Assembly (NCBI GenBank): GCA_937996685.1
Contig: CALKUP010000016.1
Location: forward strand, 18,284 to 82,283
Reading direction: 5' to 3'
From: an uncultured bacterium
GTDB taxonomy: Bacteria > Patescibacteriota > Patescibacteriia > UBA9570 > XYC2-FULL-38-9
DNA length: 64,000 nucleotides
Shown in pieces: positions 2,970 to 31,322 of the stretch (position 1 is the first letter of the stretch; each line of letters starts with the position of its first letter). Under the pieces are notes generated by a model. That model was not told where the DNA came from and did no database searches. It saw only the letters and a program-made list of their open reading frames with translations. The translations under genes and the position numbers were made by a program.

Positions 2970-3069
2970 ATATTCCGCTAGCCGCTTGCGGTGAAGTGTC
3001 TCGGGAAAGACTCAACTGTCGCTCGTCAGTTTCCCGTAGACACATTCACCTCCGCGACTGAAGGTTTTA

Positions 3070-5810: not shown

Positions 5811-5905
5811 GAGGCGGCAAGAAGAGAGCAGTAGCTGTACAACGGCATTACGCTACACAGCACTGCTCTCGGCGTAGTAAGCGTTTATACAACATTACTA
5901 CGCCT

Positions 5906-5951
5906 CGTTATCAGAGTACAAAACAATACAGCGTTGTGTATTCTGATAACG
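5906..5951. repeat. 15-bp-arm inverted repeat (cgttatcagagtaca N16 tgtattctgataacg), candidate operator upstream of 5991 gene
   Basis: Near-perfect palindrome (1 mismatch) ending 40 nt before the ATG at 5991. It is preceded by two further perfect hairpins at 5824-5870 and 5871-5904. Confidence 0.4.
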
Positions 5952-5990
5952 TTACATCTCGTAATGTGTACATTCCATCTGGAGATTCTC

Positions 5991-6578: not shown

Positions 6579-6636
6579 AGCTCAACAGGTCGATAACGGC
6601 ACTGCGTACAATGATAGATTGGGCAGTGTCATTTTT

Positions 6637-7509: not shown

Positions 7510-7532
7510 ACAGGTTGATTGTTATCGCCGAA

Positions 7533-7886
7533 TTATTGTTCTAAGAGATGAATTGTGTCGTTGAGGTTTTGCCATGTGTCAGTCAGCTGGTGTGACATTG
7601 CGCGACCGTCAGCGGTGAGTCGGTAATATTTGCGCGGCGGACCGGAAGATGATTCTTGCCATTCATACTCTAAGAGTCCCGAGCGACGCATCCGATTCAA
7701 AAGAGGGTAGAGCGTTCCTTCGACGACAATTAAATTGGCAGATTTCAGAGAACGCATGATGTCAGTCGTGTACATTGCACCGTCATGCAAAATCAGCATA
7801 ATGCAAAATTCCAAAAATCCTTTACGCATTTGCGATTGAATATTCTCAATATATTCTTCTTGTGGAGTGGGTGATGATGTTGTCAT
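7533..7886 (-). CDS. PadR family transcriptional regulator
   Basis: GFLEFCIMLILHDGAMYTTDIM...EGTLYPLLNRMRRSGLLEYEW...PPRKYYRLT is a PadR winged-helix signature. Confidence 0.8.
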   Translation of the reverse strand: MTTSSPTPQEEYIENIQSQMRKGFLEFCIMLILHDGAMYTTDIMRSLKSANLIVVEGTLYPLLNRMRRSGLLEYEWQESSSGPPRKYYRLTADGRAMSHQLTDTWQNLNDTIHLLEQ

Positions 7887-8011
7887 ATTCAGTACTTGGT
7901 ATTACACGGTACAGAGTATCACACACTAGAAAAACGTCAAGCGCGCTGCAGCGACGTTGTGTAAAAATCTATTTCCGCTATACTTTTTGTATTAGTGATT
8001 AAATAAAAAAT

Positions 8012-8770
8012 ATGAACAATCCCCTTTTTCAACGCATTGTCGTTGCAATTTCTATTGTTGCAATGATTGTGGTCAATGTATTGGCAAATATCATTCCATA
8101 TAATGGAAAACTAACAGGCGAAATCTCTGATTCATTTGCGATTTATTTTGTTCCGGCTGGATATGTATTTTCAATTTGGGGCCTGATTTATCTCTTACTT
8201 GGCGTCTATGCGGTGTATCAACTGATGCCAAAAACCTACACAAACCGAGCGCTCAATGGAGTGAGTTGGTGGGTTGTGCTGTCGAGTATCGCAAACGGTG
8301 CGTGGATTTTGCTGTGGCATTATCAATATTTTTATACGACGATTGTCGTGATGGCTGTGCTGCTTATTTCGTTGCTCATGATTTACACGCAATTAGCGCA
8401 CGGGCAGAAAAAGAAACAGAATGCACAATTTGCACGGTATGCGCGTTTGCCGTTTTCGGTGTACCTCGGTTGGATTAGTGTTGCGACGATTGCGAATGCA
8501 TCTGTGGTATTGACGCTCGCCAATTGGAATGGTTTTGGAATTGAGCCGATGTGGTGGTCTGCAATTATGATCGCGGTTGCGACAGTGCTTGGCTTGTTAA
8601 TGTTGGTTCGAGAAAAAGATATTGCCTATACATTAGTTCTTGTCTGGGCGTTTGTTGGCATTGGTATGAAATTTGCAGATGTGCCGGAGCTTGCGCAAGT
8701 GGCGTATTTTGCAGCAGCCTTGCTCACGCTCGTGTCGCTGGTTGTGTTTGTGCAAAAAAAGCGGAACTAA
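8012..8770 (+). CDS. TspO/MBR-like tryptophan-rich membrane protein (tentative)
   Basis: Multi-TM and Trp-rich. N-terminal NGKLTGEISDSFAIYFVPAGYVFSIWGLIYLLLG resembles TspO-like family proteins. Confidence 0.4.
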   Translation: MNNPLFQRIVVAISIVAMIVVNVLANIIPYNGKLTGEISDSFAIYFVPAGYVFSIWGLIYLLLGVYAVYQLMPKTYTNRALNGVSWWVVLSSIANGAWILLWHYQYFYTTIVVMAVLLISLLMIYTQLAHGQKKKQNAQFARYARLPFSVYLGWISVATIANASVVLTLANWNGFGIEPMWWSAIMIAVATVLGLLMLVREKDIAYTLVLVWAFVGIGMKFADVPELAQVAYFAAALLTLVSLVVFVQKKRN

Positions 8771-8808
8771 GACCCGCTTTGCGTTTTGTTTGTAACAGCA
8801 AGTGTGTA

Positions 8809-9786
8809 TTATTCCGCTTGCCGAGTTTTAATATTCCATTTTTTTACAACGCCCGCACGATGTTTTGTTGAGCATTCTTCGCTGCATGCACCGTTGCTAT
8901 CTTCAGCGCACGTATCACATAAAATCACCATTTTGTTACATTCTGCGTTTGAGCAGTTGTAATAGGTGTCACAGGCAGTGTCACAAAAGTCACAAGTGGA
9001 AATAATTGTGTGATGTTCGTCATCATTGAGTTGGACTTGGGTGCGATCATCAAATACATACAAACTGCCTTCCCATAAACCATCTGGAATTTCCGCAGTG
9101 TAATTCACAATGCCGTCTTGGAGTGAATAGACCTCTTCCGCTTCTTTGAGTGAGTCAACGTAGATCGATGATTTTTCACAACGAATATTTCCATTGCAAT
9201 ACATCAAGACTTTTTTGCCGCGGACCACGTCTTTGTGCTGATCCATCCATTCTGGAAAATCACGGAAGTGGTCAATATCTGGTGTGATCGCATTTTTGAA
9301 TCGACCAATGCGCGCTTCAAAGTTGTTTCGGGCATCGAGAATAACGACGTTATCTTCTTGCATCATGTCGTGAAATTCTTTCGGGCTCAGTTTTTGTGGG
9401 ACGATTGTTTCGTCATATTCTTTGGCTTTTCCAGATGCGACAATTTCTGAACGGACTTTGACGCGAATGCCAGGGAACGGATTTTTGTGATAATACTCTT
9501 TTTTGAAAAAAATATCAGAAAAGCGTGGGTCAGCATGCATGGTGCGGATATATTCTTCTGTGTCTGCATCCAGTCCAGCCAGGGTTCCGTTGATTCCTTC
9601 TGCACTAATCAGGGTTCGGCCCTTCAAATTGAGTTGCGCCATGAGTGTCTTTTGGGAGTCACGCAGCGCTTCAGGATCGGCAATATCGGTGTATTTATAA
9701 AACAACAGAATGGTGTATGGTCGGTCGGGTGTTTGGATGTCAGCTTTCATAGAAATAGAGTGTACTATGACTTGACATTTTGTCAA
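8809..9786 (-). CDS. UPF0176/TrhO-like rhodanese-domain protein (tRNA U34 hydroxylase family) with Cys-rich C-terminal extension
   Basis: N-terminal ILLFYKY...LKGRTLISAEGINGTL. Rhodanese core ...VLMYCNGNIRCEKSS. C-terminal tail with ~12 Cys (CDFCDTACDTYYNCSNAECNKMVILCDTCAEDSNGACSEECS). Alternative start MKADIQ at 9750. Confidence 0.65.
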   Translation of the reverse strand: MTKCQVIVHSISMKADIQTPDRPYTILLFYKYTDIADPEALRDSQKTLMAQLNLKGRTLISAEGINGTLAGLDADTEEYIRTMHADPRFSDIFFKKEYYHKNPFPGIRVKVRSEIVASGKAKEYDETIVPQKLSPKEFHDMMQEDNVVILDARNNFEARIGRFKNAITPDIDHFRDFPEWMDQHKDVVRGKKVLMYCNGNIRCEKSSIYVDSLKEAEEVYSLQDGIVNYTAEIPDGLWEGSLYVFDDRTQVQLNDDEHHTIISTCDFCDTACDTYYNCSNAECNKMVILCDTCAEDSNGACSEECSTKHRAGVVKKWNIKTRQAE

Positions 9787-9866
9787 AAATCAGCTACAGA
9801 AGCGATAGCTCACACCATGCACAGGCAATGATTGCTTGTTGTTTCCGTGGGTGTTCTGAGGATTTA

Positions 9867-10682
9867 ATGTCTGCTCCCTTCGTTGTCATCGAGGGTGCTC
9901 GGGTTACCCGTCAGCCGCAGTGGCTCGGGCTCATGGACGGGGCGTTGCTTCGTATCGGTGAGGAGGTTCACTTGGACGGGAATCGGCATACCGTCCCGAT
10001 CATCGGGCTGTCTGGACCCGAGGCCCGTGTTGGGCTTGATGCCGCCCATGTCACGTTCAGTCACTCCGGGCGATACGTCGCTTGGAGTGTGGGCATGACC
10101 TTGTTGGTCTTTGACCGAAATACCGGCGCGACTTTTGAAGTTCCGCTGTCTACGACGGAACGAAGCGTCACTGTACATGGGGTCAAGTGGATCGGTGAAA
10201 GCGAGATTCATGTGGACTGCACAGGATCGTGCGGACACCGGTGTCAGCAGTACCTTTTCTACAAGGGCCTGTCGTATAAAACATCCGCGCTTCCAGAAGC
10301 GGTTAAGCCGCTGGTGCTGGACGACCGGACTTCGCATGAGTTTCAGCAGACGACGCATGCGGCATTTAGTGCAAGGCTGAATGCCTTTGACGCTCGAACG
10401 GGGCTGATGGCCGCGGTCATCAAACCGGGCGAGTTGACTGTCTGGGACCTTGAGCGGTGGATCCGGCATCAGCTCGGAACCAACTTCAGCACCTACCAGT
10501 TGGGAGGTCTGGAGATGACCACCCCCAACTCGCACATCATCCACTCCCTTGAGTGGCTTCCGGGTAAGGTGCTCAGGGTCGCGGTCGCGCGGGTTGAGAG
10601 CAACCCGAATCCCGCGTTCGACGTGAGCTGCGTCTATAGCAACGGCGTATGGCACGCTGAGTTGTTGGAGCTTCGGTTCTAA
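9867..10682 (+). CDS. hypothetical protein (GC-rich island)
   Basis: In-frame ATG at 9867 with a GAGGA SD. Plus-strand composition is protein-like (W/F/Y/H-rich). The overlapping minus-strand ORF is the Arg-rich antisense. No recognisable domain. Confidence 0.45.
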   Translation: MSAPFVVIEGARVTRQPQWLGLMDGALLRIGEEVHLDGNRHTVPIIGLSGPEARVGLDAAHVTFSHSGRYVAWSVGMTLLVFDRNTGATFEVPLSTTERSVTVHGVKWIGESEIHVDCTGSCGHRCQQYLFYKGLSYKTSALPEAVKPLVLDDRTSHEFQQTTHAAFSARLNAFDARTGLMAAVIKPGELTVWDLERWIRHQLGTNFSTYQLGGLEMTTPNSHIIHSLEWLPGKVLRVAVARVESNPNPAFDVSCVYSNGVWHAELLELRF

Positions 10683-10932
10683 CAATAGGTGATGCCATGA
10701 CGTCTCCTGCTGACTCGCGTTTCCGAGCGAAACAGCAGACAACCACCACAACCGCGGACCAGAAACAGCAACAACTCGCAACTCGCGACGCTGCTTTCCT
10801 TGGTCCGCACGTTTTCAGAGCGCAGAATCAAAGCATTCTGCATTGTGAAAACTCACTACATCAAAACGCTCGCTACCATCACTGTTTTGTTGTATCCTTA
10901 TCGTATTAAAGGTAAGTCATAATAGAACAAAT

Positions 10933-11943
10933 ATGAAAATTCACATCACCCCAAAAAGTGCATTTTTGCATCTCTTTCTGATTGCAATGCTGTATGCATC
11001 AGTCATCGCAATCCTGACAGTGTTATTTCAATACGTGAATCTCGCGTATCCAGACACGCTCACTGGCGGATATTATTCACGGACCAATATTTTTGGATTG
11101 TTGAATTGGGGCAGTGCCGTGCTGGTGATTGCGTTTCCGGCACTTGTTGCAGTCTCGACTGTTTTGGAAAAAGAATTTTTAAAAGACGATACAAAGCGAC
11201 ACACACCAGAGCGAAAATGGCTGTTGTATCTCACGCAATTTATTACAGCGCTCACGATTGTTATTAGTTTAATGGCGCTGGTCTATAATTTTTATAATGG
11301 TGGCCTTACAATCCGTTTTGGATTGAAAGTGCTGGCAACACTCACTGTCGCGGCTGCAACGCTTGGATATTATCGTTGGGAATTAGTGCGGAGTGGAAAG
11401 CGCTCTCAGACTCCGCTGATTACAGCGGTGACATCAAGTGTCTGTGTTCTGATTGTGTTAGCAACAGCCTTTTTCATTGGCGCGTCTCCACAAAATCAAC
11501 GCGCAGAAAAATTTGATCAACAACGGATGGATCATTTGAGTAGCCTGCAATCGCAAGTGATTGGTTTTTGGCAAGCAAAAAAGACATTGCCAAATACGGT
11601 GGATGAAATGAATAACACGCTGCAAGGATACATCATTCCAAAAGATCCGGAGACATCAAAAGCGTATACCTATAAAAAAACAGGGGAATTGCAATTCGAA
11701 TTATGCGCAACGTTCGGCACACAGTCGTATAATTACGAAACAGAAAAGGCCGCGGGCAATGTGATTGATTCACGCGGAACAGCCGATGAAACAAAAGCGG
11801 CGAGCCTGTCTGTCGCGCCGTATGATCCATACCAAACTTGGCTGCATACGAAAGGTGAGTATTGTTTCACTCGAACAATCGATCCGGATTATTACAAAAC
11901 AGTTGAACCAGCTGCGGCTGCAACAACATCAGTTGTGCAATAG
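10933..11943 (+). CDS. membrane protein, C-terminal pseudopilin/GspG-like motif (possibly DUF5671-type)
   Basis: Four N-terminal TM helices. C-terminal ...LPNTVDEMNNTLQGYIIPKDPETSKAYTYKKTGELQFELCATFG resembles the conserved globular region of type II secretion/type IV pseudopilins. Confidence 0.45.
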   Translation: MKIHITPKSAFLHLFLIAMLYASVIAILTVLFQYVNLAYPDTLTGGYYSRTNIFGLLNWGSAVLVIAFPALVAVSTVLEKEFLKDDTKRHTPERKWLLYLTQFITALTIVISLMALVYNFYNGGLTIRFGLKVLATLTVAAATLGYYRWELVRSGKRSQTPLITAVTSSVCVLIVLATAFFIGASPQNQRAEKFDQQRMDHLSSLQSQVIGFWQAKKTLPNTVDEMNNTLQGYIIPKDPETSKAYTYKKTGELQFELCATFGTQSYNYETEKAAGNVIDSRGTADETKAASLSVAPYDPYQTWLHTKGEYCFTRTIDPDYYKTVEPAAAATTSVVQ

Positions 11944-12008
11944 CGATCCATTCTCATGTATATACAAAAAGAGCCCCGTCTATCGAGGCTCTTTTTTATG
12001 AGAAGTAT

Positions 12009-12818
12009 TTATGAGGTCAGTTTGTCAAAAAATGCCCACACGATTTCAAAAGCAATTAATATGATCACAACCCATTCAAGCGCATGTGATTGTCGGGTGT
12101 TTACTTCGTCGCGCAGTAGCTCTGTCATTTTATGGAGTGAGTCTAGTTTTTCTGACAGTACATTCCAGCGATCATCTAATTCTAAGTAGACAGCTGTTTT
12201 TGTGTAATATTGCGCAAGACGCGGCTCATCCCAAAACATATCTGGGCGATCTTCAGCAAGACCTGCAGTACTAACAGTGAATTGCAATTGAACGATAGAG
12301 CCAATTAATTTTTTAATCTGTTTAGCGCGTAATTTTGTGTGACCGGTTTCTGCCATTTCTGTTGGAAGATTCATCACGCGTTTTGAAACATCTGTTACTT
12401 GCTGTTCACTGTCTTCCATTTGAAGAGACTTCGCAACGGCGTATGAAATACTCATCAATGCTCGCATGTCATCATGCGGTACAACAAAAATATCTTCTAC
12501 AATGTCAAAATCACCATGATCAAGTTGGTAGCTGAATGTTTCGCTGACTGGTTTTTTTGAGAGGGGTTCAAAGATTTCTTCTTTTCGTTGTTCAATGAGC
12601 TCCAATACTGCTTCTGCGTTCCAGCTGACGACAGTTCCGTTTTTGAACAAAAAACAGACGCTGGCAGCATTCATGTCAGTGTGGAGCGAGGTAATTTGCA
12701 AGACCTCAGGTAGGCGAGTGATCGTATATTGATCAGTCATTGCTTCAAGAACGCGACCGAAATTGGCCCGAACACCGTATTTTACGGCTTTTGCGATTTG
12801 TGTGTTCATATGCGCCAA
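12009..12818 (-). CDS. DUF155 / RMD1 (YagE) family protein
   Basis: C-terminal WDEPRLAQYYTKTAVYLELDDRWNVLSEKLDSLHKMTELLRDEVNTRQSHALEWVVIILIAFEIVWAFF matches the DUF155 signature with its terminal TM helix. Confidence 0.75.
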   Translation of the reverse strand: MAHMNTQIAKAVKYGVRANFGRVLEAMTDQYTITRLPEVLQITSLHTDMNAASVCFLFKNGTVVSWNAEAVLELIEQRKEEIFEPLSKKPVSETFSYQLDHGDFDIVEDIFVVPHDDMRALMSISYAVAKSLQMEDSEQQVTDVSKRVMNLPTEMAETGHTKLRAKQIKKLIGSIVQLQFTVSTAGLAEDRPDMFWDEPRLAQYYTKTAVYLELDDRWNVLSEKLDSLHKMTELLRDEVNTRQSHALEWVVIILIAFEIVWAFFDKLTS

Positions 12819-12921
12819 TTATGCCAGACAATTAGTATTTTGTCAATATTGCGTCTTTTTTTCTCTTGTTTTATACTGTCTTTATTCCCGATAAGCGACT
12901 TATTCGTTACGGGATTTTTTT

Positions 12922-13941
12922 ATGCAAAAAAACACATCTACAATCAATTTAGACACTGAAATCGTTGAACATGCGCCGCTGCAGCGCCCAAATATCGGCT
13001 TTTTATACGTTCCGGACGATAAGCCAGTATTTGGGAATTCTCAGCAACTCGCTGCGTGGATGTCTGCTTTTTCTGAATTACACATGATTTGTGACGCTGA
13101 ATCATTATTTATTGCGGCGAGTCATCGTGATACGCCGGTTGCTGTGCTTGATCGCATTTGTGAAACGTTGGAAAAGCGATACGATGATTTTGATGGGTTC
13201 GTTGTTTTGTTGCCACGCCAAGACATCTTGTTTCAAGCGAGCAACTTATCTTTGCGCATTGCTCAAACAGGAAAGCCAATTGTCTGCACCAGTGATTTTG
13301 CAACAGGGTTGCAAACGCGTTTTCGAGATTATTATTCCGCAGCGTTCAAGTCAGAGATGATGTCCGCGTCGCATATTGCGTATGAAAATATTTCTGGTGT
13401 TGTTGCAATGGCAGGAATTGACGTCGTCGCTCCAGCGCACGCACGGATTGAATACACTGAGCAGCGTCCATATATCACCAGTACAGTCGCTGGGACGCTC
13501 GGCTTTATTGACTTTGGATTACACCTTGGTCGAAAAGCTGTGCGGCGCGCAAATACCAAGCCGTTGAAACTGGCGCGTTGGAAACACGTCGATGTACGGC
13601 GGATTGTGCTTGATGAAAAGCAAGCGCTCAATGTTCCGCGTCAATTATTACGAACGGAGAGAAAAACACGCGGCTTGATTGCGCAAGTATCTGGAGTTGC
13701 TCCGTTGTCTTTGTTGTCTGCGATTCCTCAGACGCTTCCAGTGTGTATCGTGTCTGCGTCAGGAGCGCAGATATCGTGGAACGGCGAGCATCGAACAGTG
13801 AGTAGTAGACATGCGAGTGCTGTTGCGGCGCAATTCACCGCCGTGCTTTCAACGCTCACACAAAAACAGTTAAAAAATCCACTGGCTATTGAACGGGCAA
13901 TGCAAAAAATCGTCTTTCCGTTTGTGAAATCAGCTGTATGA
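12922..13941 (+). CDS. hypothetical protein
   Basis: 339 aa, no confident family. Overlaps the next gene by 4 nt (ATGA), suggesting translational coupling. Confidence 0.5.
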   Translation: MQKNTSTINLDTEIVEHAPLQRPNIGFLYVPDDKPVFGNSQQLAAWMSAFSELHMICDAESLFIAASHRDTPVAVLDRICETLEKRYDDFDGFVVLLPRQDILFQASNLSLRIAQTGKPIVCTSDFATGLQTRFRDYYSAAFKSEMMSASHIAYENISGVVAMAGIDVVAPAHARIEYTEQRPYITSTVAGTLGFIDFGLHLGRKAVRRANTKPLKLARWKHVDVRRIVLDEKQALNVPRQLLRTERKTRGLIAQVSGVAPLSLLSAIPQTLPVCIVSASGAQISWNGEHRTVSSRHASAVAAQFTAVLSTLTQKQLKNPLAIERAMQKIVFPFVKSAV

Positions 13942-14510
13942 ACGTGTACATTTTTGATGAACGAACTGAGGGAGCGATTGTGGATATTTGCACTGCAAAT
14001 CGCGTGACCGTATTAACGCATCACGATGCGATGAAGCGCCGCAAACACCCGAGCCTTGGGTTGTCGTTTCTCGATCAAGTGGATGCATTAATTTTGGACA
14101 TCACACGCCCGTCTCAGGATGTGCAATTTATTTTGGCGCACGCGCTGTTGCTGCAAAAACCGACATTATGCGTCTATGCAAAAAATTATCCACCGCGCGA
14201 TGTGATTGCGTATATCAAAAAACAGCCAGCACCACGCTCGATTAAAACGTTTTCATATAGTAGTCAGTCACTTGCTGAAGGAATTCGACGGTTTGTATCA
14301 CAACATCATGTGGATCCAGAAGAGCGAGATGTTGTTCCGTCTATTAAATACACCTTGCGAATGACGCCACAAACAGACCGATATATTCAATGGTTATCAG
14401 AAAAGCAGCACAAAACAAAAGCGATTGTGTTGCGCGAATTGTTTGCAACAATGGCATTGACTGATGCGGATTATCAAGCGGAGCAACGCGCTCGAGAAAA
14501 CGAAGTATAG
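13938..14510 (+). CDS. hypothetical protein (flavodoxin/nucleoside-deoxyribosyltransferase-like N-terminal fold, tentative)
   Basis: MNVYIFDERTEGAIVD...VDALILDITRPSQDVQFILAHALLLQKPTLCVYAKN has a Rossmann-like pattern. C-terminal tail is charged and helical. Confidence 0.45.
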   Translation: MNVYIFDERTEGAIVDICTANRVTVLTHHDAMKRRKHPSLGLSFLDQVDALILDITRPSQDVQFILAHALLLQKPTLCVYAKNYPPRDVIAYIKKQPAPRSIKTFSYSSQSLAEGIRRFVSQHHVDPEERDVVPSIKYTLRMTPQTDRYIQWLSEKQHKTKAIVLRELFATMALTDADYQAEQRARENEV

Positions 14511-14619
14511 ATTCACTTCTTCCGTCTTTTTGCTGAATTTGCTATAGTATAAATAATACTATTTCCGCAAACATGTGCGAGATTTGCTCGTAATACGTTT
14601 GATTATTTTTATCATCACT

Positions 14620-17600
14620 ATGGGAAGAACAACAAAAGAAGGGCGTAGAGAAAAGGTGTCAGAACCAGAAGATCAAAGACTGGCTCGCTTGGAAAGACGG
14701 CGTGTAGTAGACAAAGCAAGGCGTGAGAAAGAGAAAGCTGCTAAAGCAGCGTCCTTAGAATCAAATACAGGGACAGTGGCTGAGACTCCGACTTCAGACC
14801 TTGTTATTTCTGCCGAGGTCCCTGAAGCTACTGAGCTGATAACGAGTCCTGCTGCTACTCCTTTAGGGCCTACTCCAGCAGACCCACAACCAGTAGCGCC
14901 AGTCGAGCCTCCTGAAAAGACTGATTCTAAAACAGGTTCAGGTAAAGGAAGGCGAGATGATGATCCTCGTGATCGAAATTTGCGAAAGTCAGAGCGATCT
15001 GAAGCCGTTGATTATTCAAAGCCAAAAAATAATCTTGGTCGGGTGTTATCTTTTTCCACGGTCATTCTTGATGAACCCACTAATACAGTGCTTGTTCCAG
15101 TTGCGGTAGAGGGAGCGGAAGTGATTGAAGTACAAATTATTTATCCAGAGTTTGATAAGTTTGATGTTAAAAATCATGCTGATGCACCATATCTTGGTCA
15201 GCAGAAGATTCGTATTGTTGGTGTTACAGAAGCGGCAGAATCAAAAGATGGAAAAGTGCATTATCGGGCTATTTTAGAGAAGTGGCGAGAGAATTTTGTT
15301 GCAGAGCAAGCGCGTGTAGAAGAAGAAAATGATCAATATCTTCCAGGTGATCGTATTCACAATGTGTCGCTGGTTCTGAATCCTTCAAGAAGAGCGCCAA
15401 GTCGGTTTTTTGTTGAGCGTGAACGCAATGACAAAAAAGAGCGATTGTATATTCAAGCTGGAGCGTCAAGTATTCCGGATCCTGCCGATCCTACAGCTCT
15501 GAGCGGTCAATATGATATTGAGGTTTTGTCTTGTGCTGGTACAAAAATTGAACAAGACGGTGTTCCTGTTACGCTGTATCAAGCAATGATTGTTGAAAAA
15601 ACTGACCCGACAAGCATTGAGACTAAATATGACGCTGAGACTCTGAAGCGAGAATTGCACACTAAAAAAGATGCCGATCGTGTAGATCAGATTAGAAAAT
15701 TGCCACGTAAAAAAAGTGATTTCCCCGCACCAGATAGAATTATCGCTGATAATAACATTTATTTTACTGTCAATATAGGCTCAAAAGACGATGAATTGAA
15801 TGGGTACTTTATCCATGAAGGAAATAACAAATTTCTCGCAGTGCGATCTTTGTTGAATCTTTTGGACTCTCAATCTGGGCAACGGTTGGAATTTTTTCCA
15901 TCAGCAGAAGTCGCTGTGCTTGGTGAGTTAGGGAAGAAAAGAGAAGGTCGGCCTGTTTTTGAAGGAGTATTTCAGCACGATGTTGAATTCATTGGATATG
16001 TCAGGTCTTATGAAGAGATACTTCGAAGTCATGAAGGTATCTTGCGTTACATTGATACACTGACACTTGATGAAGTGCCTGGCGATGCTCAAAAAACGCT
16101 CATACGCTCTATTCAAAAAAAGCGATCAAACATGATGCGTATTGTGTCTGAAATGGGCAAAGGGATGCGCGGTTCAAGAGTATTGCGAGAGTTTTTAGAC
16201 GATTTTCGCTCTAACAGTGTGGAGTTGAATATTGCTTTGAGTACTGCCGAGCAACAATTTGGCTCGAAAATCAACACGGTAGAACAAGCTGAGCACCATG
16301 AAGATGATCTGTTTTTATTTGAGTTGGGCGCGTATGAACGTCGTCACCCAAGTCCGTCTATTGAAGTGATGCATCAGCGTCGTTTGGATTTGTACAAACA
16401 ATTAATTGATAATGAAGTTCAACGGAAGCCTGGAACGCGTCTTGCGTATCAAGCATTACAAGCTGAAATTGCGCAACGTAATCATGAAAGTGACATGGGG
16501 CGACATGGACGGATTCGAGGCTTGCTTGCTTGGGCAAAAGCATATGCTGAGCGTTTTCCAAGAATGTTTGATGCTCAACCTGCAAGTGTTGATGCTGAAG
16601 CTGAGAAACCAGTAGCTGCTGCCGTGTCAAAAGCTGAGGCTGACAATTCAGCAGGCGTTGTTGAGGCACCGAAGGTCGAGGTTACTGCTCCAGCCCCAGG
16701 ACCTGCTCTCGCAGGAAGTGCAGTAGAAGCAGCGGAAGCAGTGTCGCCGCCTACCGTTGAAAAAGTAGAGACTCCAGCAACACCTACAGCACAAGCGTTG
16801 TTTACTGAAAAAGATTTTGACCCGGCAATTGATAACGGCTTTGAAGATGGAACAACCATTTTGGTCCAGATTCCAGGCTTTGGATATGAGCTTGACGGAC
16901 AAATGGTTCGTCCAGATTATTTGGTGATTACTTATTTTGACGACGCTTCAGGACAAATGCAAGCAACGCCGTATTTCAACGGAGTGCCAGCAGATCGGCC
17001 AATCGCATTTACGTATAGTAGTCTAGAAGCGTTTAGTCAGATTCGCGCTGTAACAGAAGCAGAAGTGCTGACTGTGAAAACAGTCGTGCCTGAGCCTGAG
17101 GCAGCGCCAGCTCCAGTTGCTGTGGAAGCTCCTTCGGTAGATTCCTTTGAGAGTGATGCATCTTTCGTTGCTCCAGAAGTAAAAGAGCGGTTACAAGATC
17201 AAATTAAAGAGCTTGCCGCACGATTATCACGTCTCGGTGTTTCGGTAACTGAGGATATATTGCTGCAAAGTGCGATACTGCGGAGATCTCCTTCTCTCGA
17301 AGGCGGTGATCATGTTTCATGTCGAATAACCTTTGATTCGCCACGCAATATCCCATTACCTGAAGCGCTTAAAGTTAAAGACGAATCTAATAGTGACATT
17401 TATGAGGGTCCGGTATTTATCAATTCCTTGGTGATGTATAATATAGATAACGTAAAAAGTATTGATGCATGGATTATTGGGTTGTCAGATGCAAATGGTG
17501 AACAGCGTGTAATGAGTGTGTCAATTGTTGAATTAGAAAAATTAATCAACGCTAAACAGTTGCCGGCAGAATATGATGCAAGTGGATTGCGGCTTGTTGA

Positions 17601-18684
17601 TTCAACTAGCAGAATTGCAACCGCATCTGAAGCTGATCGGAATGCTAAAAATTTTTGGGGTGATGATGATTCTTCAGAATCAGGTTGGTCAACAGCAGCT
17701 GATGCTGCAGAAGCGCCTGTTGATGTTAATGAGTCAGAAGTTTCAGAAGACAAAAAAGCTGAACTGCGAGCTAAAATGGAAGAGGTCTTTCAAAGACTTA
17801 AGGCCCTTGGCGTTGTTGTTGGTGATGTACAGTCTCTATTAGAAAACGCAATTTTTAGGACAAGTGGTGTGTATTCAGGTGGATATATCTATTTACATTC
17901 TCTGGGTAATCAAAATTTACAAATTAGCCTTCCGAGGGCTATTGAGCGACAAGCAGATGCATCTGCTGCCCACCGCTTTGAAGGTGTGCTGACTATTAAT
18001 AGCTTGTTTCTAGGGTCTGGGGAAGATGTTGCTGACTGTGAGATGCAGCTGGATTCAGATCAGTCATCGTGGGAATTTCGTCTTTCTGAATTAGAAGATT
18101 TGATTACTAATGGAAATATTTCAGAATCTCTAGAAAGGTGGGGTTTTCGCTTTGTTGAGTCAGATAGTGCTGCGCCTGCGGAAGTAGCGGCACCAGTAAA
18201 AACCGAAGCACCGAAAAAGCCGGACGCAGTAGCAGCGGTTCCATCGCTTGAATCTATTTTGCCGGCTGGAAAGACAATTGATCGGTATGTCGCTGAGCTG
18301 CGACCGCGTGCTGCTGAAATAAAGAAAATGATTACAGATACTCTTGGCATGTGGCAAATGATCAGATTAGCTGGACGAACAGGTGAATTACAAGCGCTTG
18401 TTCCAGAATTAACTGAATTACTTGATCGAGTGACGGTGGCAAAAAAAGCAATTCGTGATAAACGAAAAAGAACGGATTCAGATCCTGAGATTATTACAGC
18501 TCATACGGCTGAATTACAATTTGTTCAAGAGTTGTCACAGCTTTTTTCAGATCAAGGAATTCGTGGAATTGCAGCAAGTGCAGATACGGTTAACAATTTT
18601 ATTGATAAAAAGTTGCCTGTATTGAAGGGTAAGGCAAAGAAAATAGTAGAATCATACGATGCTATTACCCGCACCATGAAGTAA
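14620..18684 (+). CDS. giant (1355 aa) hypothetical cytoplasmic protein with P/A/E-rich linkers and an internal ~140-aa tandem duplication
   Basis: ATG at 14620 (MGRTTKEGRREK...). The track ORF starts at 14575. No signal peptide, basic N-terminus. Low-complexity linkers (PTPADPQPVAPVEPPE, APAPVAVEAPS, AAPAEVAAPVKTEAPKKP). Repeat 1 ~nt 17176-17600 and repeat 2 ~17749-18170 align (RL..LGV.V.....LL..AI.R.S ... EG...INSL...). Confidence 0.6.
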   Translation: MGRTTKEGRREKVSEPEDQRLARLERRRVVDKARREKEKAAKAASLESNTGTVAETPTSDLVISAEVPEATELITSPAATPLGPTPADPQPVAPVEPPEKTDSKTGSGKGRRDDDPRDRNLRKSERSEAVDYSKPKNNLGRVLSFSTVILDEPTNTVLVPVAVEGAEVIEVQIIYPEFDKFDVKNHADAPYLGQQKIRIVGVTEAAESKDGKVHYRAILEKWRENFVAEQARVEEENDQYLPGDRIHNVSLVLNPSRRAPSRFFVERERNDKKERLYIQAGASSIPDPADPTALSGQYDIEVLSCAGTKIEQDGVPVTLYQAMIVEKTDPTSIETKYDAETLKRELHTKKDADRVDQIRKLPRKKSDFPAPDRIIADNNIYFTVNIGSKDDELNGYFIHEGNNKFLAVRSLLNLLDSQSGQRLEFFPSAEVAVLGELGKKREGRPVFEGVFQHDVEFIGYVRSYEEILRSHEGILRYIDTLTLDEVPGDAQKTLIRSIQKKRSNMMRIVSEMGKGMRGSRVLREFLDDFRSNSVELNIALSTAEQQFGSKINTVEQAEHHEDDLFLFELGAYERRHPSPSIEVMHQRRLDLYKQLIDNEVQRKPGTRLAYQALQAEIAQRNHESDMGRHGRIRGLLAWAKAYAERFPRMFDAQPASVDAEAEKPVAAAVSKAEADNSAGVVEAPKVEVTAPAPGPALAGSAVEAAEAVSPPTVEKVETPATPTAQALFTEKDFDPAIDNGFEDGTTILVQIPGFGYELDGQMVRPDYLVITYFDDASGQMQATPYFNGVPADRPIAFTYSSLEAFSQIRAVTEAEVLTVKTVVPEPEAAPAPVAVEAPSVDSFESDASFVAPEVKERLQDQIKELAARLSRLGVSVTEDILLQSAILRRSPSLEGGDHVSCRITFDSPRNIPLPEALKVKDESNSDIYEGPVFINSLVMYNIDNVKSIDAWIIGLSDANGEQRVMSVSIVELEKLINAKQLPAEYDASGLRLVDSTSRIATASEADRNAKNFWGDDDSSESGWSTAADAAEAPVDVNESEVSEDKKAELRAKMEEVFQRLKALGVVVGDVQSLLENAIFRTSGVYSGGYIYLHSLGNQNLQISLPRAIERQADASAAHRFEGVLTINSLFLGSGEDVADCEMQLDSDQSSWEFRLSELEDLITNGNISESLERWGFRFVESDSAAPAEVAAPVKTEAPKKPDAVAAVPSLESILPAGKTIDRYVAELRPRAAEIKKMITDTLGMWQMIRLAGRTGELQALVPELTELLDRVTVAKKAIRDKRKRTDSDPEIITAHTAELQFVQELSQLFSDQGIRGIAASADTVNNFIDKKLPVLKGKAKKIVESYDAITRTMK

Positions 18685-18693
18685 AACGAGTAA

Positions 18694-18726
18694 ACAAAAA
18701 ACCGCTCGATTTGAGCGGTTTTTTTA
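18694..18726. terminator. bidirectional intrinsic terminator between convergent genes
   Basis: aaaaaaACCGCTCGATTTGAGCGGTttttttt. Confidence 0.6.
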
Positions 18727-18738
18727 ATCAGCGGAAAG

Positions 18739-19164
18739 TTATTCCTTAGCCGCGGCTTTTTTTGCTGGAGTCTTTTTTTCTTTCACGACTTTTTCAGCAA
18801 CTGGTTTGAGTTCCAAATCTTTTTTGACAGAGTCTAAGATTTTTACAAACAATTCTGGATAGTCTTCTGCAATCAATCCGAGGATTTTGCGATCAACTTC
18901 GATATCGTTTTTCTTCAGCGCACCAATGAATTTACTATAAGAAGTTCCATTGAGCTTTGCAGCTGCAGAAATTTTGATCTGCCAACCAGCGCGACGTGTG
19001 CGCTTTTTCTGTTTGCGATGATCAAATGCGCGTTGACCAGCTTTTTTAATAGCAGTCTTTGCTTCACGTGTTAAATTTTTACGACCTTGTGAAAACCCTT
19101 TGGCTTTCTTTAAAATCGCTTTTCGTTTTTTGGTGCGGACTGCACCTCGTTTGACTCGTGCCAT
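18739..19164 (-). CDS. rplT: 50S ribosomal protein L20 (with K/A-rich C-terminal extension)
   Basis: MARVKRGAVRTKKRKAILKKAKGF...RKQKKRTRRAGWQ. infC-rpmI-rplT order conserved. Confidence 0.9.
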   Translation of the reverse strand: MARVKRGAVRTKKRKAILKKAKGFSQGRKNLTREAKTAIKKAGQRAFDHRKQKKRTRRAGWQIKISAAAKLNGTSYSKFIGALKKNDIEVDRKILGLIAEDYPELFVKILDSVKKDLELKPVAEKVVKEKKTPAKKAAAKE

Positions 19165-19193
19165 ACAATAATGATGTTACAGTGTTTAGGATC

Positions 19194-19409
19194 TTACGCT
19201 TGCCCCAGGGCTCGTTTAACGTTTCGTGTAATAGTCTTTGAAACCGGAGTATCACTGCGTTTATTGCGCTTTGTCTTTCCGCTTTCTCGGCTGTTGAAAT
19301 GATCTTGACCAGCTTTTCGGGTCATGAGTTTTCCTCCTTTTTTGGCGTTGCCACCTTTGGTGACAGTCACGCGCTTGCTGATGACTTTTCGAGTTTTGAG
19401 TTTAGGCAT
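19194..19409 (-). CDS. rpmI: 50S ribosomal protein L35
   Basis: MPKLKTRKVISKRVTVTKGGN... Confidence 0.85.
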   Translation of the reverse strand: MPKLKTRKVISKRVTVTKGGNAKKGGKLMTRKAGQDHFNSRESGKTKRNKRSDTPVSKTITRNVKRALGQA

Positions 19410-19418
19410 AGGTATAGC

Positions 19419-19988
19419 TTATTTTTTCTTCATTGCAATCGTTGTTGAGAACTTGCCGCCCATGCGACCAATTGGCTGTTCCACAACAACCTCTCTCTCA
19501 AGAAGCTCAATATAGCGGTCAATCACTTTTTTGGCAAGTTCTGGGTGGGCTTTTTCACGACCACGGAGCAAAAGCTCAATTCGGACTTTGTCACCCTTAT
19601 CAAGGAATTTTTGACCAGCGTTGACGCGAACGAGCATATCATGTTCGCCAATTTTGACGGATAAACGAATGCCTTTTGTTTCGCCAGTGGTCTTTTTCGC
19701 ACTTGAACGGTTTTTTCGTTCTTGTTTTTCCTTTTGATACTGCAATTTGCCAAAATCAACGATTTTCGCAACTGGAGGAGTGCCTTTTGGGCCAACTTCG
19801 ACTAAATCAAGGCCGCTTTCTTGTGCTTTTGCGATCGCGTCAGCAGTTGGAGTCGGTCCAATTTGTTCTCCATCAACACCGATCAGAAATACTTCTGGAA
19901 CGTTGATTTCTTGATTTTTACGAAAAGCCTTTCCAAGGTCCGGCTTTTTGAAGTCTTGGCGGCGACGTGGCCGAAAATGTCGTGAAAT
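19419..19988 (-). CDS. infC: translation initiation factor IF-3, probable AUU start
   Basis: The track ORF (19419..19745) covers only the C-terminal domain. The frame is open upstream to a TAA and has no ATG/GTG/TTG. An ATT at complement(19986..19988) gives ISRHFRPRRRQDFKKPDLGKAFRKNQEINVPEVFLIGVDGEQIGPTPTADAIAKAQESGLDLVEVGPKGTPPVAKIVDFGKLQYQKEK..., a canonical IF3 N-domain. Confidence 0.75.
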   Translation of the reverse strand: MSRHFRPRRRQDFKKPDLGKAFRKNQEINVPEVFLIGVDGEQIGPTPTADAIAKAQESGLDLVEVGPKGTPPVAKIVDFGKLQYQKEKQERKNRSSAKKTTGETKGIRLSVKIGEHDMLVRVNAGQKFLDKGDKVRIELLLRGREKAHPELAKKVIDRYIELLEREVVVEQPIGRMGGKFSTTIAMKKK

Positions 19989-20011
19989 AGTAGTAAAACT
20001 TAATTCTTAAT

Positions 20012-20402
20012 TGGTGGAAATGACGGGACTCACACCCGTGTCTCGCTCGTGAAACATATATCATCTCCATGCTCAGATCGTTTGGTAATTTCGATAATGA
20101 AAACAAAAACGAACAAATGGTTCAGTATCTATCTTTGAGAAATGTCCATTACGCGCCAAAGAATCACGGAATGTAAGTCGCGGTTAAAGTGATACCGCAG
20201 GCAGTCGTAGCGACGTCAGACTGCGGCGATAGTTGCAGAATTTAGGCTGCAACAGGAGCCAATTCAAAAGACGCAAGCTTTGCAGCGGCAGTCTTCAAAC
20301 GGCTAGTGAAGTTTGCACTTCGAATAGTGAGATGTTTTACGAGAACCTCAACTCGACATGCAGATATATGTTGTCAATGAACGGTCAACGATAAACATCC
20401 CC
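20012..20402 (-). ncRNA. ssrA: tmRNA (SsrA), 391 nt
   Basis: Minus-strand RNA. 5-prime GGGGAUG pairs with 3-prime CAUUUCC-A-CCA (G3:U70 wobble as in tRNA-Ala). T-arm ACGGG-UGUGAGU-CCCGU. Internal tag frame GCA AAC UUC ... GCU CCU GUU GCA GCC UAA encodes ...FELAPVAA*. Sits immediately downstream of smpB. Confidence 0.8.
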
Positions 20403-20452
20403 ATATAACCTTGTATACCGAAAAATCAGGATACAAGGCTAAATGCAACGGT

Positions 20453-20893
20453 TTATGATTGTTTCATTAAGCGAGCAAGATCTCGTTTAACGTCTCTTTG
20501 TTTGATTTTTTCACGTTTGTCGTGTTTTTTAAGACCCTTTGCGAGCTGCAACCGAACCTTAATCAAACCGGACTTACTATACACAATTTCAGGGACAATT
20601 GTCAACCCTTTTTCTTGTAATTTCCCAATAATTCGCTTGATTTCAGATTTGCGAAGCAAGAGCTTGCGGTCGTGCTCTGGAGTGTAGCCGACTTGGTTCT
20701 TGATTTGGTAGGCAGCAATGTGTGAATTGACTAGCCAAATCTCGTTATCACGCAGACTGACATAGGTTCCTTTGAGGTTCATGCGGCCATTTTTGACGGA
20801 TTTCACTTCAGCGCCAGATAGCACAATACCAGCTTCAAAAGCTTCGAGAAATTCGTAATTGTGACGTGCGTCTTTATTAATAATCCGTTCCAT
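20453..20893 (-). CDS. smpB: SsrA-binding protein SmpB
   Basis: MERIINKDARHNYEFLEAFEAGIVLSGAEVKSVKNGRMNLKGTYV... Confidence 0.9.
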   Translation of the reverse strand: MERIINKDARHNYEFLEAFEAGIVLSGAEVKSVKNGRMNLKGTYVSLRDNEIWLVNSHIAAYQIKNQVGYTPEHDRKLLLRKSEIKRIIGKLQEKGLTIVPEIVYSKSGLIKVRLQLAKGLKKHDKREKIKQRDVKRDLARLMKQS

Positions 20894-21158
20894 TGTGGCA
20901 GTATACGCGAGAGAGTGCGAAAAATCAACGATTTTCTGTTTATTTTCATGAATCTCTTTTTTGGCGGTATATCCATTGACAAAACAGGTGAAAAAGTGTT
21001 AGGTTCTTTTGATTTGCAATCAAGCAAATTGTTCGTTTTATTTATAGAGCAGGTGTATTTCTGTGGGCGCGCTGTGTGGCTGATTATGAAGTGATTCAGC
21101 AATAGAGCGCACTCACAGAAGCACGAATAACCGTGTGGTGACATGCAAGGAGGTATGC

Positions 21159-25917: not shown

Positions 25918-26011
25918 TGAAAAAATAGTTGATCTTTGTCAAAAAATGGGCATCAAAAGCCCGTTCAGAGAAGCAAAAAAAATCCAACCCTTGAATAAAG
26001 AGAGGTTTGCC

Positions 26012-31319: not shown

Positions 31320-31322
31320 TTG

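What the first reader, a model, noticed from the sequence alone, without database searches (positions are those of the whole stretch)
12009..18684. Giant 1355-aa orphan protein with internal tandem duplication, downstream of two overlapping orphan genes
The ORF from 14620 to 18684 has no signal peptide and no recognisable catalytic motif. It has long P/A/E-rich linkers and two ~140-aa repeats (~17176-17600 and ~17749-18170) that align convincingly. It follows two translationally coupled unknown genes (12922-13941 and 13938-14510; ATGA overlap) and a divergently oriented DUF155 gene. A multi-domain cytoplasmic scaffold of this size in a small genome is a strong candidate for an undescribed function.
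Basis: seen in the sequence. Interest (0 to 1): 0.6.

Follow-up and report, generated by a model that had tools for sequence, protein, structure and literature searches.

The report
Fast-evolving giant modular protein cassette
A real 1354-residue cytoplasmic protein with no known relatives outside one rare bacterial lineage; with two inactivated-enzyme-like neighbours it forms a hypervariable three-gene island in an otherwise conserved chromosome, and its function is still unknown.

Summary
The ORF 14620-18684 is intact (1354 aa). Its two ~140-aa repeats align at 28% identity (E 2e-11). The two upstream genes overlap by ATGA, and a DUF155 gene lies divergently upstream.

The giant protein matches no Pfam, NCBIfam, PHROG, PADLOC or PDB entry. 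An exhaustive HMMER scan of 1.84 billion representatives found only three relatives, and these share only its N-terminal ~550 aa.

The locus is syntenic in seven related uncultured genomes. It is a hypervariable island (12862-18695). Flanking proteins are 76-96% identical to one such relative (L005), against 42% and 60% for the two upstream proteins and 29% over 147 aa for the giant.

The upstream "orphans" are not orphans:
- One has a type-I asparaginase fold but lacks the catalytic threonines.
- The other is a DNPH1/Rcl-like domain lacking the catalytic glutamate, fused to a probable ribbon-helix-helix domain.

Best reading (inferred, not shown): a non-enzymatic modular scaffold in a rapidly diversifying regulatory or conflict-type cassette.

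The parts
12009..12818 (-). DUF155 (RMND1/Sif2 family) gene, divergent from the cassette. It belongs to the conserved backbone and marks the left edge of the island.
   Evidence: Pfam PF02582 E 4.7e-33. It is 73-82% identical to the relatives. The backbone DNA block ends at 12861.
12862..18695 (.). Hypervariable island that interrupts a collinear backbone of 77-86% DNA identity.
   Evidence: blastn of the window against L005 finds blocks 10707-12861 and 18696-20905. Between them only two short patches align.
12886..12921 (+). Conserved leader hairpin (UCCCG...CGGGA) followed by U7, directly 5' of the ATG of the first cassette gene. A TATACT box lies upstream. It is a possible attenuator or 5' element.
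   Evidence: Conserved in the window and four of the five relatives aligned there (the fifth sequence was cut short). Fold energy -11.1 kcal/mol, z -2.76. No Rfam match.
12922..13941 (+). 339-aa protein with a type-I L-asparaginase fold that lacks the catalytic threonines, so a predicted pseudoenzyme.
   Evidence: PF00710 scores 22.9 bits against a cutoff of 22.5. The family profile matches E. coli AnsA at E 2.5e-6, with HGTDT aligned to LPRDR. The GGT motif is absent.
13938..14510 (+). 190-aa protein. The N-terminal domain is DNPH1/Rcl-like (nucleoside 2-deoxyribosyltransferase fold) with the catalytic Glu replaced by Ile. The C-terminal ~55 aa are ribbon-helix-helix-like. It overlaps the previous gene by ATGA.
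   Evidence: The profile matches 2klh/4fyh at E 6e-6, and 'GVGYELG' aligns to 'DVQFILA'. DUF6290 matches 6 of 7 orthologs, best E 1.8e-4, below threshold. ATGA overlap seen.
14511..14619 (+). Intergenic region upstream of the giant gene. It is a diverged version of a promoter-like element with an inverted repeat that is almost invariant in the relatives.
   Evidence: Alignment A7. No Rfam match.
14620..18684 (+). Giant ORF, 1354 aa, acidic (pI 5.0, net charge -53), with a beads-on-a-string layout.
14620..15030 (+). N-terminal disordered region (aa 1-137): a basic K/R/E segment, then a P/A/T-rich segment, then a second basic segment. An MG(R/K)xxK-type start is shared with relatives.
   Evidence: Composition. 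N-termini of relatives.
15031..16578 (+). Family-defining N-module (aa 138-653): three small beta domains followed by a helical bundle.
   Evidence: It is 36% identical to P0006 and 30% to P0007; aa 431-651 are 29% identical to P0008. AF2 model pLDDT 66.6, pTM 0.53. Foldseek best hits are HIN-200 tandem OB folds, E 3e-4 with low TM-scores.
16792..17064 (+). Domain X (aa 725-815), homologous to the N-terminal domain of the gene that lies downstream of the giant in relatives.
   Evidence: hhalign probability 84%, E 7e-6, 66 columns. BLAST hints.
17170..17604 (+). Repeat 1 (aa 851-995), an alpha+beta domain.
17749..18165 (+). Repeat 2 (aa 1044-1182).
   Evidence: It has no homolog in any relative's locus.
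18199..18681 (+). C-terminal block (aa 1194-1354): the motif KTEAPKK..VPSLESILPxGK followed by a basic helical region. It is homologous to the C-terminus of the PP2C-containing downstream gene of relative L004.
   Evidence: 47% identity over 93 aa, E 4e-16.
18696..18725 (.). Bidirectional intrinsic terminator (A6-CCGCTC-GATTT-GAGCGG-T7) between the giant gene's stop and the rplT stop. It marks the right edge of the island.
   Evidence: Read directly from the sequence. The backbone DNA block resumes at 18696.

Best explanation
What is shown:
- The ORF encodes a real, lineage-restricted, very fast-evolving modular protein with a beads-on-a-string layout.
- In order it contains a basic disordered N-terminus, a ~520-aa N-module that defines the family (three small beta domains plus a helical bundle), then three exchangeable modules joined by acidic P/A/E-rich linkers: domain X, a tandem-duplicated alpha+beta domain, and a C-terminal helical block.
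- It arose by fusion of two adjacent genes. In relative L004, gene 1 carries the N-module and gene 2 carries domain X, a PP2C phosphatase and the C-block. In the window the two are one ORF, and the duplicated domain sits where the PP2C is.
- The giant, an asparaginase-fold protein without its catalytic threonines, and a DNPH1-fold protein without its catalytic glutamate fused to an RHH-like tail together form a three-gene cassette. This cassette diverges far faster than the surrounding chromosome.

What is inferred:
- The giant is a non-enzymatic scaffold or adaptor. The conserved N-module would bind a constant partner, and the swapped C-terminal modules would bind or act on variable partners. 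In relatives that action would be Ser/Thr dephosphorylation.
- The two pseudoenzymes act as ligand or partner sensors.
- The RHH protein controls transcription of the giant gene through the inverted repeat that flanks the -10 box.
- The pattern of diversification points to an arms-race role (defence, competition or host interaction) rather than housekeeping.
For: - The ORF and the repeat are real.
- An exhaustive search found only three relatives, all limited to the N-module.
- Gene order DUF155(-)/asp-like/NDT-RHH/giant/(gene 2)/rplT is kept wherever the short contigs reach: all three upstream genes precede a giant gene (full-length or its start) in L001, L003, L004, L005 and L007, L002 lacks only a recorded DUF155 call, and the P0007 contig shows only giant/rplT.
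- Fusion: the C-block matches the C-terminus of L004 gene 2 at E 4e-16. Domain X matches the N-termini of gene 2 at hhalign E 7e-6. L004 gene 2 scores 30.1 bits for PP2C_2 against a cutoff of 24. P0008 carries a PP2C-like stretch (sub-threshold Pfam hit) fused inside the giant.
- Hypervariability: backbone DNA is 77-86% identical and flanking proteins 76-96%. The asp-like protein is 42% identical, NDT-RHH 60%, and the giant 29% over 147 aa. The order DUF155 > RHH > asp-like holds against every locus; the giant, comparable only in the window, L001 and L004, is the most diverged there.
- Lost catalytic residues.
- RHH-like tail.
- A promoter-like element with a 7-bp inverted repeat and one compensatory change lies upstream of the giant gene in relatives.
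- No catalytic family was detected in the window protein.
Against: - Nothing here shows binding, localisation or expression.
- The folded domains are mostly acidic, which argues against nucleic-acid binding by the beta domains.
- No PADLOC match and no viral relative.
- The locus was found, at the same position, on every related contig recovered. Classical defence islands usually show presence/absence variation instead.
- The window's own upstream region has diverged from the conserved promoter/inverted-repeat element, so the RHH-operator idea is untested for this genome.
- The fast divergence could reflect relaxed constraint on a disorder-rich protein rather than positive selection.
Confidence: 0.35

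Rival explanations
1. Anti-phage or other conflict system of a new type. The giant would act as sensor plus effector scaffold. The two pseudoenzymes would sense nucleotide or amino-acid-derived signals, and the RHH domain would keep the cassette repressed until attack.
For: - The island is hypervariable inside a conserved backbone.
- Modules are shuffled between genomes.
- NDT/DNPH1-fold and RHH domains are common in conflict systems (own knowledge).
- The ATGA-coupled gene pair resembles toxin-antitoxin operon layouts.
Against: - No PADLOC or PHROG match.
- No nuclease, NTPase, TIR, protease or pore-forming effector domain was detected.
- The cassette was found in every related genome examined, at the same site, which is not the usual patchy distribution.
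- The predicted catalytic residues are lost in both small proteins.
Confidence: 0.2
2. Cytoskeletal or attachment-structure protein of a small-genome, host-dependent bacterium. It would be analogous to the large cytoplasmic Mycoplasma terminal-organelle proteins with acidic proline-rich domains, whose stability is controlled by a Ser/Thr kinase and a PP2C phosphatase.
For: - Long acidic P/A/E-rich linkers, no signal peptide, large size.
- PP2C in relatives.
- Fast evolution fits host-interface machinery.
- The window's gene content looks like Patescibacteria/CPR: DUF5671, DUF4012, split transketolase.
Against: - The analogy comes from memory only. No sequence or fold similarity to those proteins was tested or found.
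- The taxonomic labels of related MAGs conflict ('Gammaproteobacteria', 'Bdellovibrionales').
- Lifestyle is unknown.
Confidence: 0.15
3. Nucleic-acid-binding protein, either nucleoid- or ribosome-associated. It would use tandem OB-like barrels and basic disordered tails, with a link to translation suggested by the neighbouring DUF155 and infC-rpmI-rplT genes.
For: - Foldseek hits are all OB-fold nucleic-acid binders: HIN-200, LEF-3, the LysRS N-domain, CST.
- The N-terminus and the C-block are basic.
- rplT and infC lie directly downstream on the opposite strand.
Against: - Match statistics are weak and the model is of medium confidence.
- Beta domains D1 and D3 are acidic, and the whole protein has pI 5.0.
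- The neighbouring translation genes belong to the conserved backbone and are convergently transcribed, so adjacency is not evidence of linkage.
- Housekeeping nucleic-acid binders do not diverge to 29% identity between genomes whose IF3 is 96% identical.
Confidence: 0.1
4. Decaying or functionless sequence: a long ORF kept by chance or under relaxed constraint after gene fusion and loss of the PP2C domain.
For: - Extreme divergence, loss of the only enzymatic domain, and about 24% low-complexity linker.
Against: - A 4-kb open frame at 44% GC is not expected by chance.
- The N-module keeps 30-38% identity with conserved motifs across genomes.
- The duplicated domain gives a confident fold prediction from only two sequences.
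- Regulatory elements and a terminator are intact.
Confidence: 0.05

Closest known systems
PP2C/SpoIIE-type multi-domain Ser/Thr phosphatases (Pfam PF13672 PP2C_2)
   Same: Relatives of this locus carry a PP2C domain joined to the same modules as in the window protein: domain X, the C-block and the N-module.
   Different: The window protein has no PP2C domain, and none is found in the 64-kb window. The duplicated alpha+beta domain occupies that position.
HIN-200 / tandem OB-fold proteins (p204, IFI16, AIM2)
   Same: The predicted beta domains of the N-module give their best Foldseek matches to tandem OB folds.
Type I L-asparaginase (AnsA; PF00710), compared with the 339-aa neighbour
   Same: The fold-level sequence match spans the 'DGFVV...GKPIV' core.
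   Different: Both catalytic threonine motifs (GGT and HGTDT) are replaced in all orthologs. It is predicted not to be an amidohydrolase.
DNPH1/Rcl 2'-deoxynucleoside 5'-phosphate N-hydrolase (nucleoside 2-deoxyribosyltransferase fold), compared with the 190-aa neighbour
   Same: The profile matches rat Rcl over about 90 residues, including the 'ADVVVAEVT...GVGYELG...KPILCLF' core.
   Different: The catalytic Glu is Ile in all orthologs. The domain is fused to an RHH-like DNA-binding tail that DNPH1 lacks.
Mycoplasma terminal-organelle proteins with acidic proline-rich domains (HMW1, P65, P200)
   Same: They are large cytoplasmic proteins of small-genome bacteria, with acidic proline-rich linkers and regulation by a PP2C phosphatase. 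This comparison is from own knowledge, not tested here.
   Different: No homology was tested or detected. The organism and its lifestyle are unknown.
RHH-regulated toxin-antitoxin or defence cassettes
   Same: The upstream gene pair is translationally coupled, one member has an RHH-like domain, and the locus evolves fast and is strain-variable.
   Different: No known toxin or effector domain is present. There is no PADLOC match, and the proteins are much larger than classical TA pairs.

Membership tests
Any curated protein family, for the giant protein (Pfam, NCBIfam, PHROGs, PADLOC, PDB sequences) | A profile match at or above the curated threshold | tested here: not met
   The best hits are DUF2203 at 15.2 bits (cutoff 24) and CT392 at 12.8 bits (cutoff 160). 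PHROGs, PADLOC and PDB gave nothing.
PP2C phosphatase | A PP2C_2 or SpoIIE profile match in the window protein | tested here: not met
   No Pfam hit. tblastn of relatives' PP2C domains against the whole window finds nothing better than E 0.46. L004 gene 2 does meet the cutoff (30.1 bits against 24); P0008's hit is below it (17.6 bits).
OB-fold / HIN-like nucleic-acid-binding domains | A five-stranded beta-barrel fold confirmed by a significant structural match | tested here: inconclusive
L-asparaginase type I (339-aa neighbour) | Sequence or fold similarity to PF00710 | tested here: met
   22.9 bits against a cutoff of 22.5. An ortholog-only profile matches AnsA at E 2.5e-6.
L-asparaginase type I (339-aa neighbour) | Catalytic threonines in the GGT(I) and HGTDT motifs | tested here: not met
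   The motif positions read 'LYVPDD' and 'LPRQD/LPRDR' in all orthologs.
DNPH1/Rcl / nucleoside 2-deoxyribosyltransferase (190-aa neighbour) | Sequence similarity to the family core | tested here: met
   The profile matches 2klh and 4fyh at E 6e-6. The window protein alone has no Pfam hit.
DNPH1/Rcl / nucleoside 2-deoxyribosyltransferase (190-aa neighbour) | The catalytic glutamate of the 'GYELG' motif | tested here: not met
   It aligns to Ile in 'DVQFILA', which is invariant in the orthologs.
Ribbon-helix-helix DNA-binding domain (DUF6290-like) in the 190-aa neighbour | A profile match above threshold, or the beta-alpha-alpha pattern | tested here: inconclusive
   DUF6290 matches 6 of 7 orthologs, best E 1.8e-4, below the 27-bit cutoff. 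The window copy has no hit. The beta-alpha-alpha pattern is visible by eye in A12.
Known anti-phage defence systems (PADLOC-DB v2) | Any component model matched | tested here: not met
   None of the three cassette proteins has a hit at E <= 0.1.
DUF155 (RMND1/Sif2), flanking gene | A PF02582 match above the cutoff | tested here: met
   115.2 bits against a cutoff of 27.
Known RNA families, for the two conserved non-coding elements | An Rfam covariance-model match | tested here: not met
   Only chance-level matches. At gathering scores the window and L005 each give only tmRNA and L007 gives nothing.

The most novel reading that the evidence does not exclude
The cassette would be a previously undescribed kind of rapidly diversifying conflict or host-interaction module in a rare uncultured lineage with CPR-like gene content. 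Two ex-enzymes would have been recruited as small-molecule or partner sensors: an asparaginase fold without its threonines, and a DNPH1 fold without its glutamate fused to an RHH domain. These would control a giant scaffold. The scaffold's constant N-module would anchor interchangeable output modules: a PP2C phosphatase in some genomes and a newly duplicated domain of novel fold in this one. Genes would fuse and split as the modules are exchanged.
Probability: 0.15. Interest if true: 0.75.

Novelty: categorically new. Interest (0 to 1): 0.55.

Why it matters
- If the giant protein and its two pseudoenzyme partners work together, they define a protein family and a cassette architecture that no curated library covers.
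- The cassette shows unusually clear evolutionary signals. It diverges to 29-60% identity between genomes whose flanking proteins are 76-96% identical to each other.
- Its modules are swapped and genes are fused, and non-coding control elements in the relatives are better conserved than the proteins they control.
- Such signatures usually mark arms-race biology: defence, competition or host contact. This is poorly understood in uncultured small-genome bacteria.
- The locus also offers two natural examples of enzyme folds repurposed after losing their catalytic residues, and a domain with no fold match in the PDB.
- Weighing against this: the lineage is rare, only a handful of contigs exist in public data, and there is no functional evidence.

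Tried and rejected
1. Word-indexed homology searches with the whole giant and with the N-module alignment returned nothing. This is a search artefact. These nulls are therefore not evidence of orphan status. The exhaustive HMMER scan is the valid test.
2. A genome-contig scan with the giant found nothing. Scans with the 190-aa protein alignment found 2 loci in genome contigs and 1 in metagenome contigs. Viral contigs gave none.
3. I tested whether the window's repeats are homologous to the 'SPLER...GPFRL' module shared by relatives. hhalign probability was 0.6%, so this is rejected.
4. I tested whether the three beta domains of the N-module are repeats of each other. hhalign probabilities were <= 1.3%, so this is not supported.
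6. I looked for a paralog of the giant, or a PP2C, elsewhere in the window. None was found.
7. I compared the GC-rich ORFs 4428-5810 and 25946-27292 as possible paralogs. They are not related.
10. Literature searches for bacterial DUF155 function and for hypervariable large proteins in Patescibacteria found nothing relevant.
11. A eukaryote-type N-myristoylation reading of the 'MG' start is rejected by eye, because Arg at position 3 violates the consensus.
Full report
OBSERVATION

The ORF is real. It is open from 14575 (GTG) or 14620 (ATG) to 18684 on the + strand, giving 1354 aa from the ATG. Two things support the ATG start. The exact 1354-aa product is on record from NCBI, ENA and Logan, while the GTG-extended form is not. 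The 'ATGGG' start also aligns across all related loci.

The internal duplication is real. Residues 853-993 and 1044-1184 align at 28% identity over 145 columns, E 2e-11. The two upstream genes (12922-13941 and 13938-14510) overlap by ATGA. The divergent gene 12009-12818 matches DUF155 at E 4.7e-33.

The protein is acidic (pI 5.0, net charge -53). About a quarter of it is P/A/E/T/S/V-rich linker. A bidirectional intrinsic terminator (18696-25) separates it from the convergent rplT-rpmI-infC genes.

HOW ORPHAN IS IT?

Pfam, NCBIfam, PHROGs, PADLOC and PDB sequences gave nothing for the giant. Two word-indexed searches also gave nothing, but these nulls are artefacts.

The valid test is the exhaustive HMMER scan of 1.84 billion cluster representatives. 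It found three relatives:
- P0006, 1219 aa, 36-38% identity.
- P0007, 1140 aa, 30-32% identity.
- P0008, 1511 aa, 29% identity over ~220 aa.

All three match only giant residues ~126-686. The giant therefore belongs to a very small family defined by an N-terminal module. The C-terminal half has no full-length counterpart.

GENOMIC CONTEXT

The 339-aa neighbour has three homologs at 42-44% identity. Their contigs, and those of P0006-P0008, show the same gene order wherever the contigs reach: DUF155(-), the 339-aa homolog, the ~190-aa homolog, a giant gene, sometimes one more gene, then rplT. A scan of GTDB species representatives with the 190-aa protein alignment found only two loci, and a metagenome scan found one more. 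The lineage is therefore rare in public data. Viral contigs have no relative.

The related MAGs carry conflicting labels: 'uncultured Gammaproteobacteria' and 'Bdellovibrionales'. The window's gene content looks like a Patescibacteria/CPR-type bacterium, with DUF5671, DUF4012, split transketolase, a minimal pentose-phosphate set and strong strand bias. That assignment is an inference, and 'small genome' was not verifiable.

A HYPERVARIABLE ISLAND

I compared the window with the best-covered relative, L005, which comes from a 143-kb contig. The chromosome is collinear at 77-86% DNA identity in blocks 3065-4194, 6637-9798, 10707-12861 and 18696-20905.

Protein identities to L005:

| Protein | Identity |
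|---|---|
| IF3 | 96% |
| AI-2E transporter | 95% |
| Rhodanese | 95% |
| L20 | 93% |
| DUF5671 | 91% |
| 252-aa ORF | 91% |
| DUF155 | 82% |
| PspC | 81% |
| SmpB | 76% |
| 190-aa protein | 60% |
| 339-aa protein | 42% |
| Giant | 29% over 147 residues only |

The order DUF155 > 190-aa > 339-aa holds against every locus; the giant, comparable only in the window, L001 and L004, is the most diverged there. The finding's three genes therefore sit exactly in a variable island, 12862-18695. Its edges are the DUF155 intergenic region and the terminator.

THE GIANT IS A FUSION WITH MODULE REPLACEMENT

In L004, the giant's ortholog P0006 is followed by a second gene, which is interrupted by an assembly gap of Ns. 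Three results connect that second gene to the window's C-terminal half:
- Its C-terminus matches window residues 1194-1282 at 47% identity, E 4e-16. The match includes a nearly identical motif, KTEAPKK..VPSLESILPxGK.
- Its N-terminal domain, and that of the corresponding L005 gene, match window residues 740-805 ('domain X'). hhalign gives probability 84%, E 7e-6.
- Between those two ends it carries a PP2C phosphatase (PP2C_2, 30.1 bits against a cutoff of 24).

In P0008 and L001 a PP2C-like stretch (sub-threshold in Pfam for P0008, by sequence motifs in L001) lies inside the giant itself. The window protein has no PP2C, and none is found elsewhere in the window. The two repeats sit where the PP2C is in L004 gene 2.

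The repeats have no homolog in any related locus. They are not related to the 'SPLER...GPFRL' module that the relatives share.

STRUCTURE

THE TWO UPSTREAM 'ORPHANS'

The 339-aa protein has the type-I asparaginase fold. PF00710 scores just above its cutoff. A profile built only from its orthologs matches E. coli AnsA at E 2.5e-6. The two threonine motifs that define asparaginase catalysis are replaced in all orthologs: GGT reads 'VPDD' and HGTDT reads 'LPRQD/LPRDR'. That these motifs are catalytic is established knowledge of the family.

The N-terminal ~130 residues of the 190-aa protein match DNPH1/Rcl at profile E 6e-6. The glutamate of 'GVGYELG', which is the Rcl nucleophile by established knowledge, aligns to an invariant Ile. 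Its C-terminal ~55 residues show a ribbon-helix-helix pattern. They hit the RHH-type family DUF6290 in 6 of 7 orthologs, below threshold.

Both proteins thus look like enzyme folds kept for binding rather than catalysis. The second also has a DNA-binding tail.

NON-CODING ELEMENTS

Two elements stand out:
- A hairpin (UCCCG...CGGGA) plus U7 lies directly 5' of the 339-aa gene's ATG, preceded by a TATACT box. It is conserved in the window and in four of the five relatives aligned there; the fifth sequence was cut short. In some relatives its 3' arm can pair instead with a downstream segment, as in attenuators.
- Upstream of the giant gene, the relatives share an almost invariant ~60-nt element. 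It reads as TTGACT-N17(TGn)-TATTTT with a 7-bp inverted repeat, GCGGAAA/TTTCCGC, flanking the -10 box. L005 carries a compensatory GCGAAAA/TTTTCGC change.

The window's version of the second element has diverged. Neither element matches Rfam. The second element could be the operator of the RHH protein, but that is inference.

INTERPRETATION

Shown:
- The ORF and the duplication are real.
- The family is small and the synteny is conserved.
- The window protein is a fusion with module replacement.
- The cassette is hypervariable relative to its flanks.
- Both neighbours have lost their catalytic residues.
- Relatives carry PP2C.

Inferred: the giant is a non-enzymatic scaffold. Its conserved N-module would bind a constant partner, and its exchangeable C-terminal modules would engage variable partners. 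Expression would be under the control of the RHH protein and the leader hairpin. The whole cassette would evolve under arms-race-like pressure. I put this at about 0.35.

Rivals:
- A genuinely new defence or conflict system (0.2).
- A cytoskeletal or attachment protein analogous to Mycoplasma acidic-proline-rich organelle proteins (0.15; the analogy is from memory only).
- A nucleic-acid or ribosome-associated OB-fold protein (0.1).
- A decaying ORF (0.05).

These readings overlap in part.

NOVELTY AND SCORE

The giant protein cannot be filed in any known family. Its duplicated domain has no fold match, and the cassette architecture is undescribed as far as the libraries and literature searched here show.

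Large unannotated proteins are common in uncultured small-genome bacteria, however, and there is no functional evidence. The extra findings raise the interest above a plain 'big hypothetical protein', but not to the top range. These are the hypervariable island, the fusion with PP2C replacement, the two pseudoenzymes and the conserved control elements.

Noticed in passing
L001:3203-3302, L002:2489-2620, L003:2932-3060, L004:3324-3423, L005:9918-10021, L007:9931-10040; window 14511-14619: A ~60-nt element upstream of the giant gene is almost invariant among relatives whose giant proteins are only ~25-50% identical. It consists of TTGACT, N17 with TGn, TATTTT, and a 7-bp inverted repeat GCGGAAA/TTTCCGC. 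L005 carries a compensatory change. The window copy has diverged. It could be an RHH operator or a 5'-UTR hairpin, and it is not in Rfam.
   Followed up: partly
window 12886-12921 (also L002, L003, L005, L007): A conserved hairpin plus U7 lies directly 5' of the start codon of the first cassette gene. In relatives an alternative pairing is possible with a downstream segment, as in an attenuator. No Rfam match.
   Followed up: partly
window 4195-6636: A second variable island relative to L005. It holds a 460-aa ORF (4428-5810) with a MopE-type Cu-binding motif and a 214-aa ORF. GC content is 55.7% against ~44% in the rest of the window, which suggests acquired DNA.
   Followed up: partly
window 9799-10706: A third variable island. 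Two fully overlapping antisense ORFs lie here (9780-10682 on +, 300 aa; 9864-10781 on -, 305 aa), neither with a family match. L005 has an unrelated 483-aa gene at this position, with a weak FG-GAP hit.
   Followed up: no
window 25946-27292: A 448-aa ORF with no Pfam match lies in a second GC-rich patch (55.5%). It is not related to the ORF at 4428-5810.
   Followed up: partly
window 58832-63205: Another very large ORF (1457 aa) combines an M48 peptidase motif near the N-terminus with an ABC1/UbiB-type atypical kinase domain near the C-terminus.
   Followed up: no
protein collection (P0009-P0013): The giant protein is filed in a 90%-identity cluster whose representative is an unrelated 55-aa protein. 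This clustering artefact hides it from the representative-based searches.
   Followed up: yes
L001 giant aa ~1038, L004 downstream gene aa ~41, L005 downstream gene aa ~129: A short conserved linear motif, 'DPxLLAIPxxEExRVP', lies in disordered regions in L001, L004 and L005; in L001 and L004 it precedes the PP2C domain. It is absent from the window protein.
   Followed up: no
L006 (CAZBLE010000001.1), L007 (JBIIKE010000019.1): Related MAGs are labelled 'uncultured Gammaproteobacteria' and 'Bdellovibrionales'. The gene content of the window (DUF5671, DUF4012, split transketolase, strong strand bias) looks like Patescibacteria/CPR. The labels may be wrong, or the lineage is unplaced.
   Followed up: no
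window 20012-20402 (-) and 20453-20893 (-): A standard one-piece tmRNA (86 bits) lies next to smpB. ARAGORN did not report it, although Rfam did.
   Followed up: no
window 30450-32318: Transketolase is split into separate N-terminal and C-terminal genes, next to ribulose-phosphate 3-epimerase.
   Followed up: no
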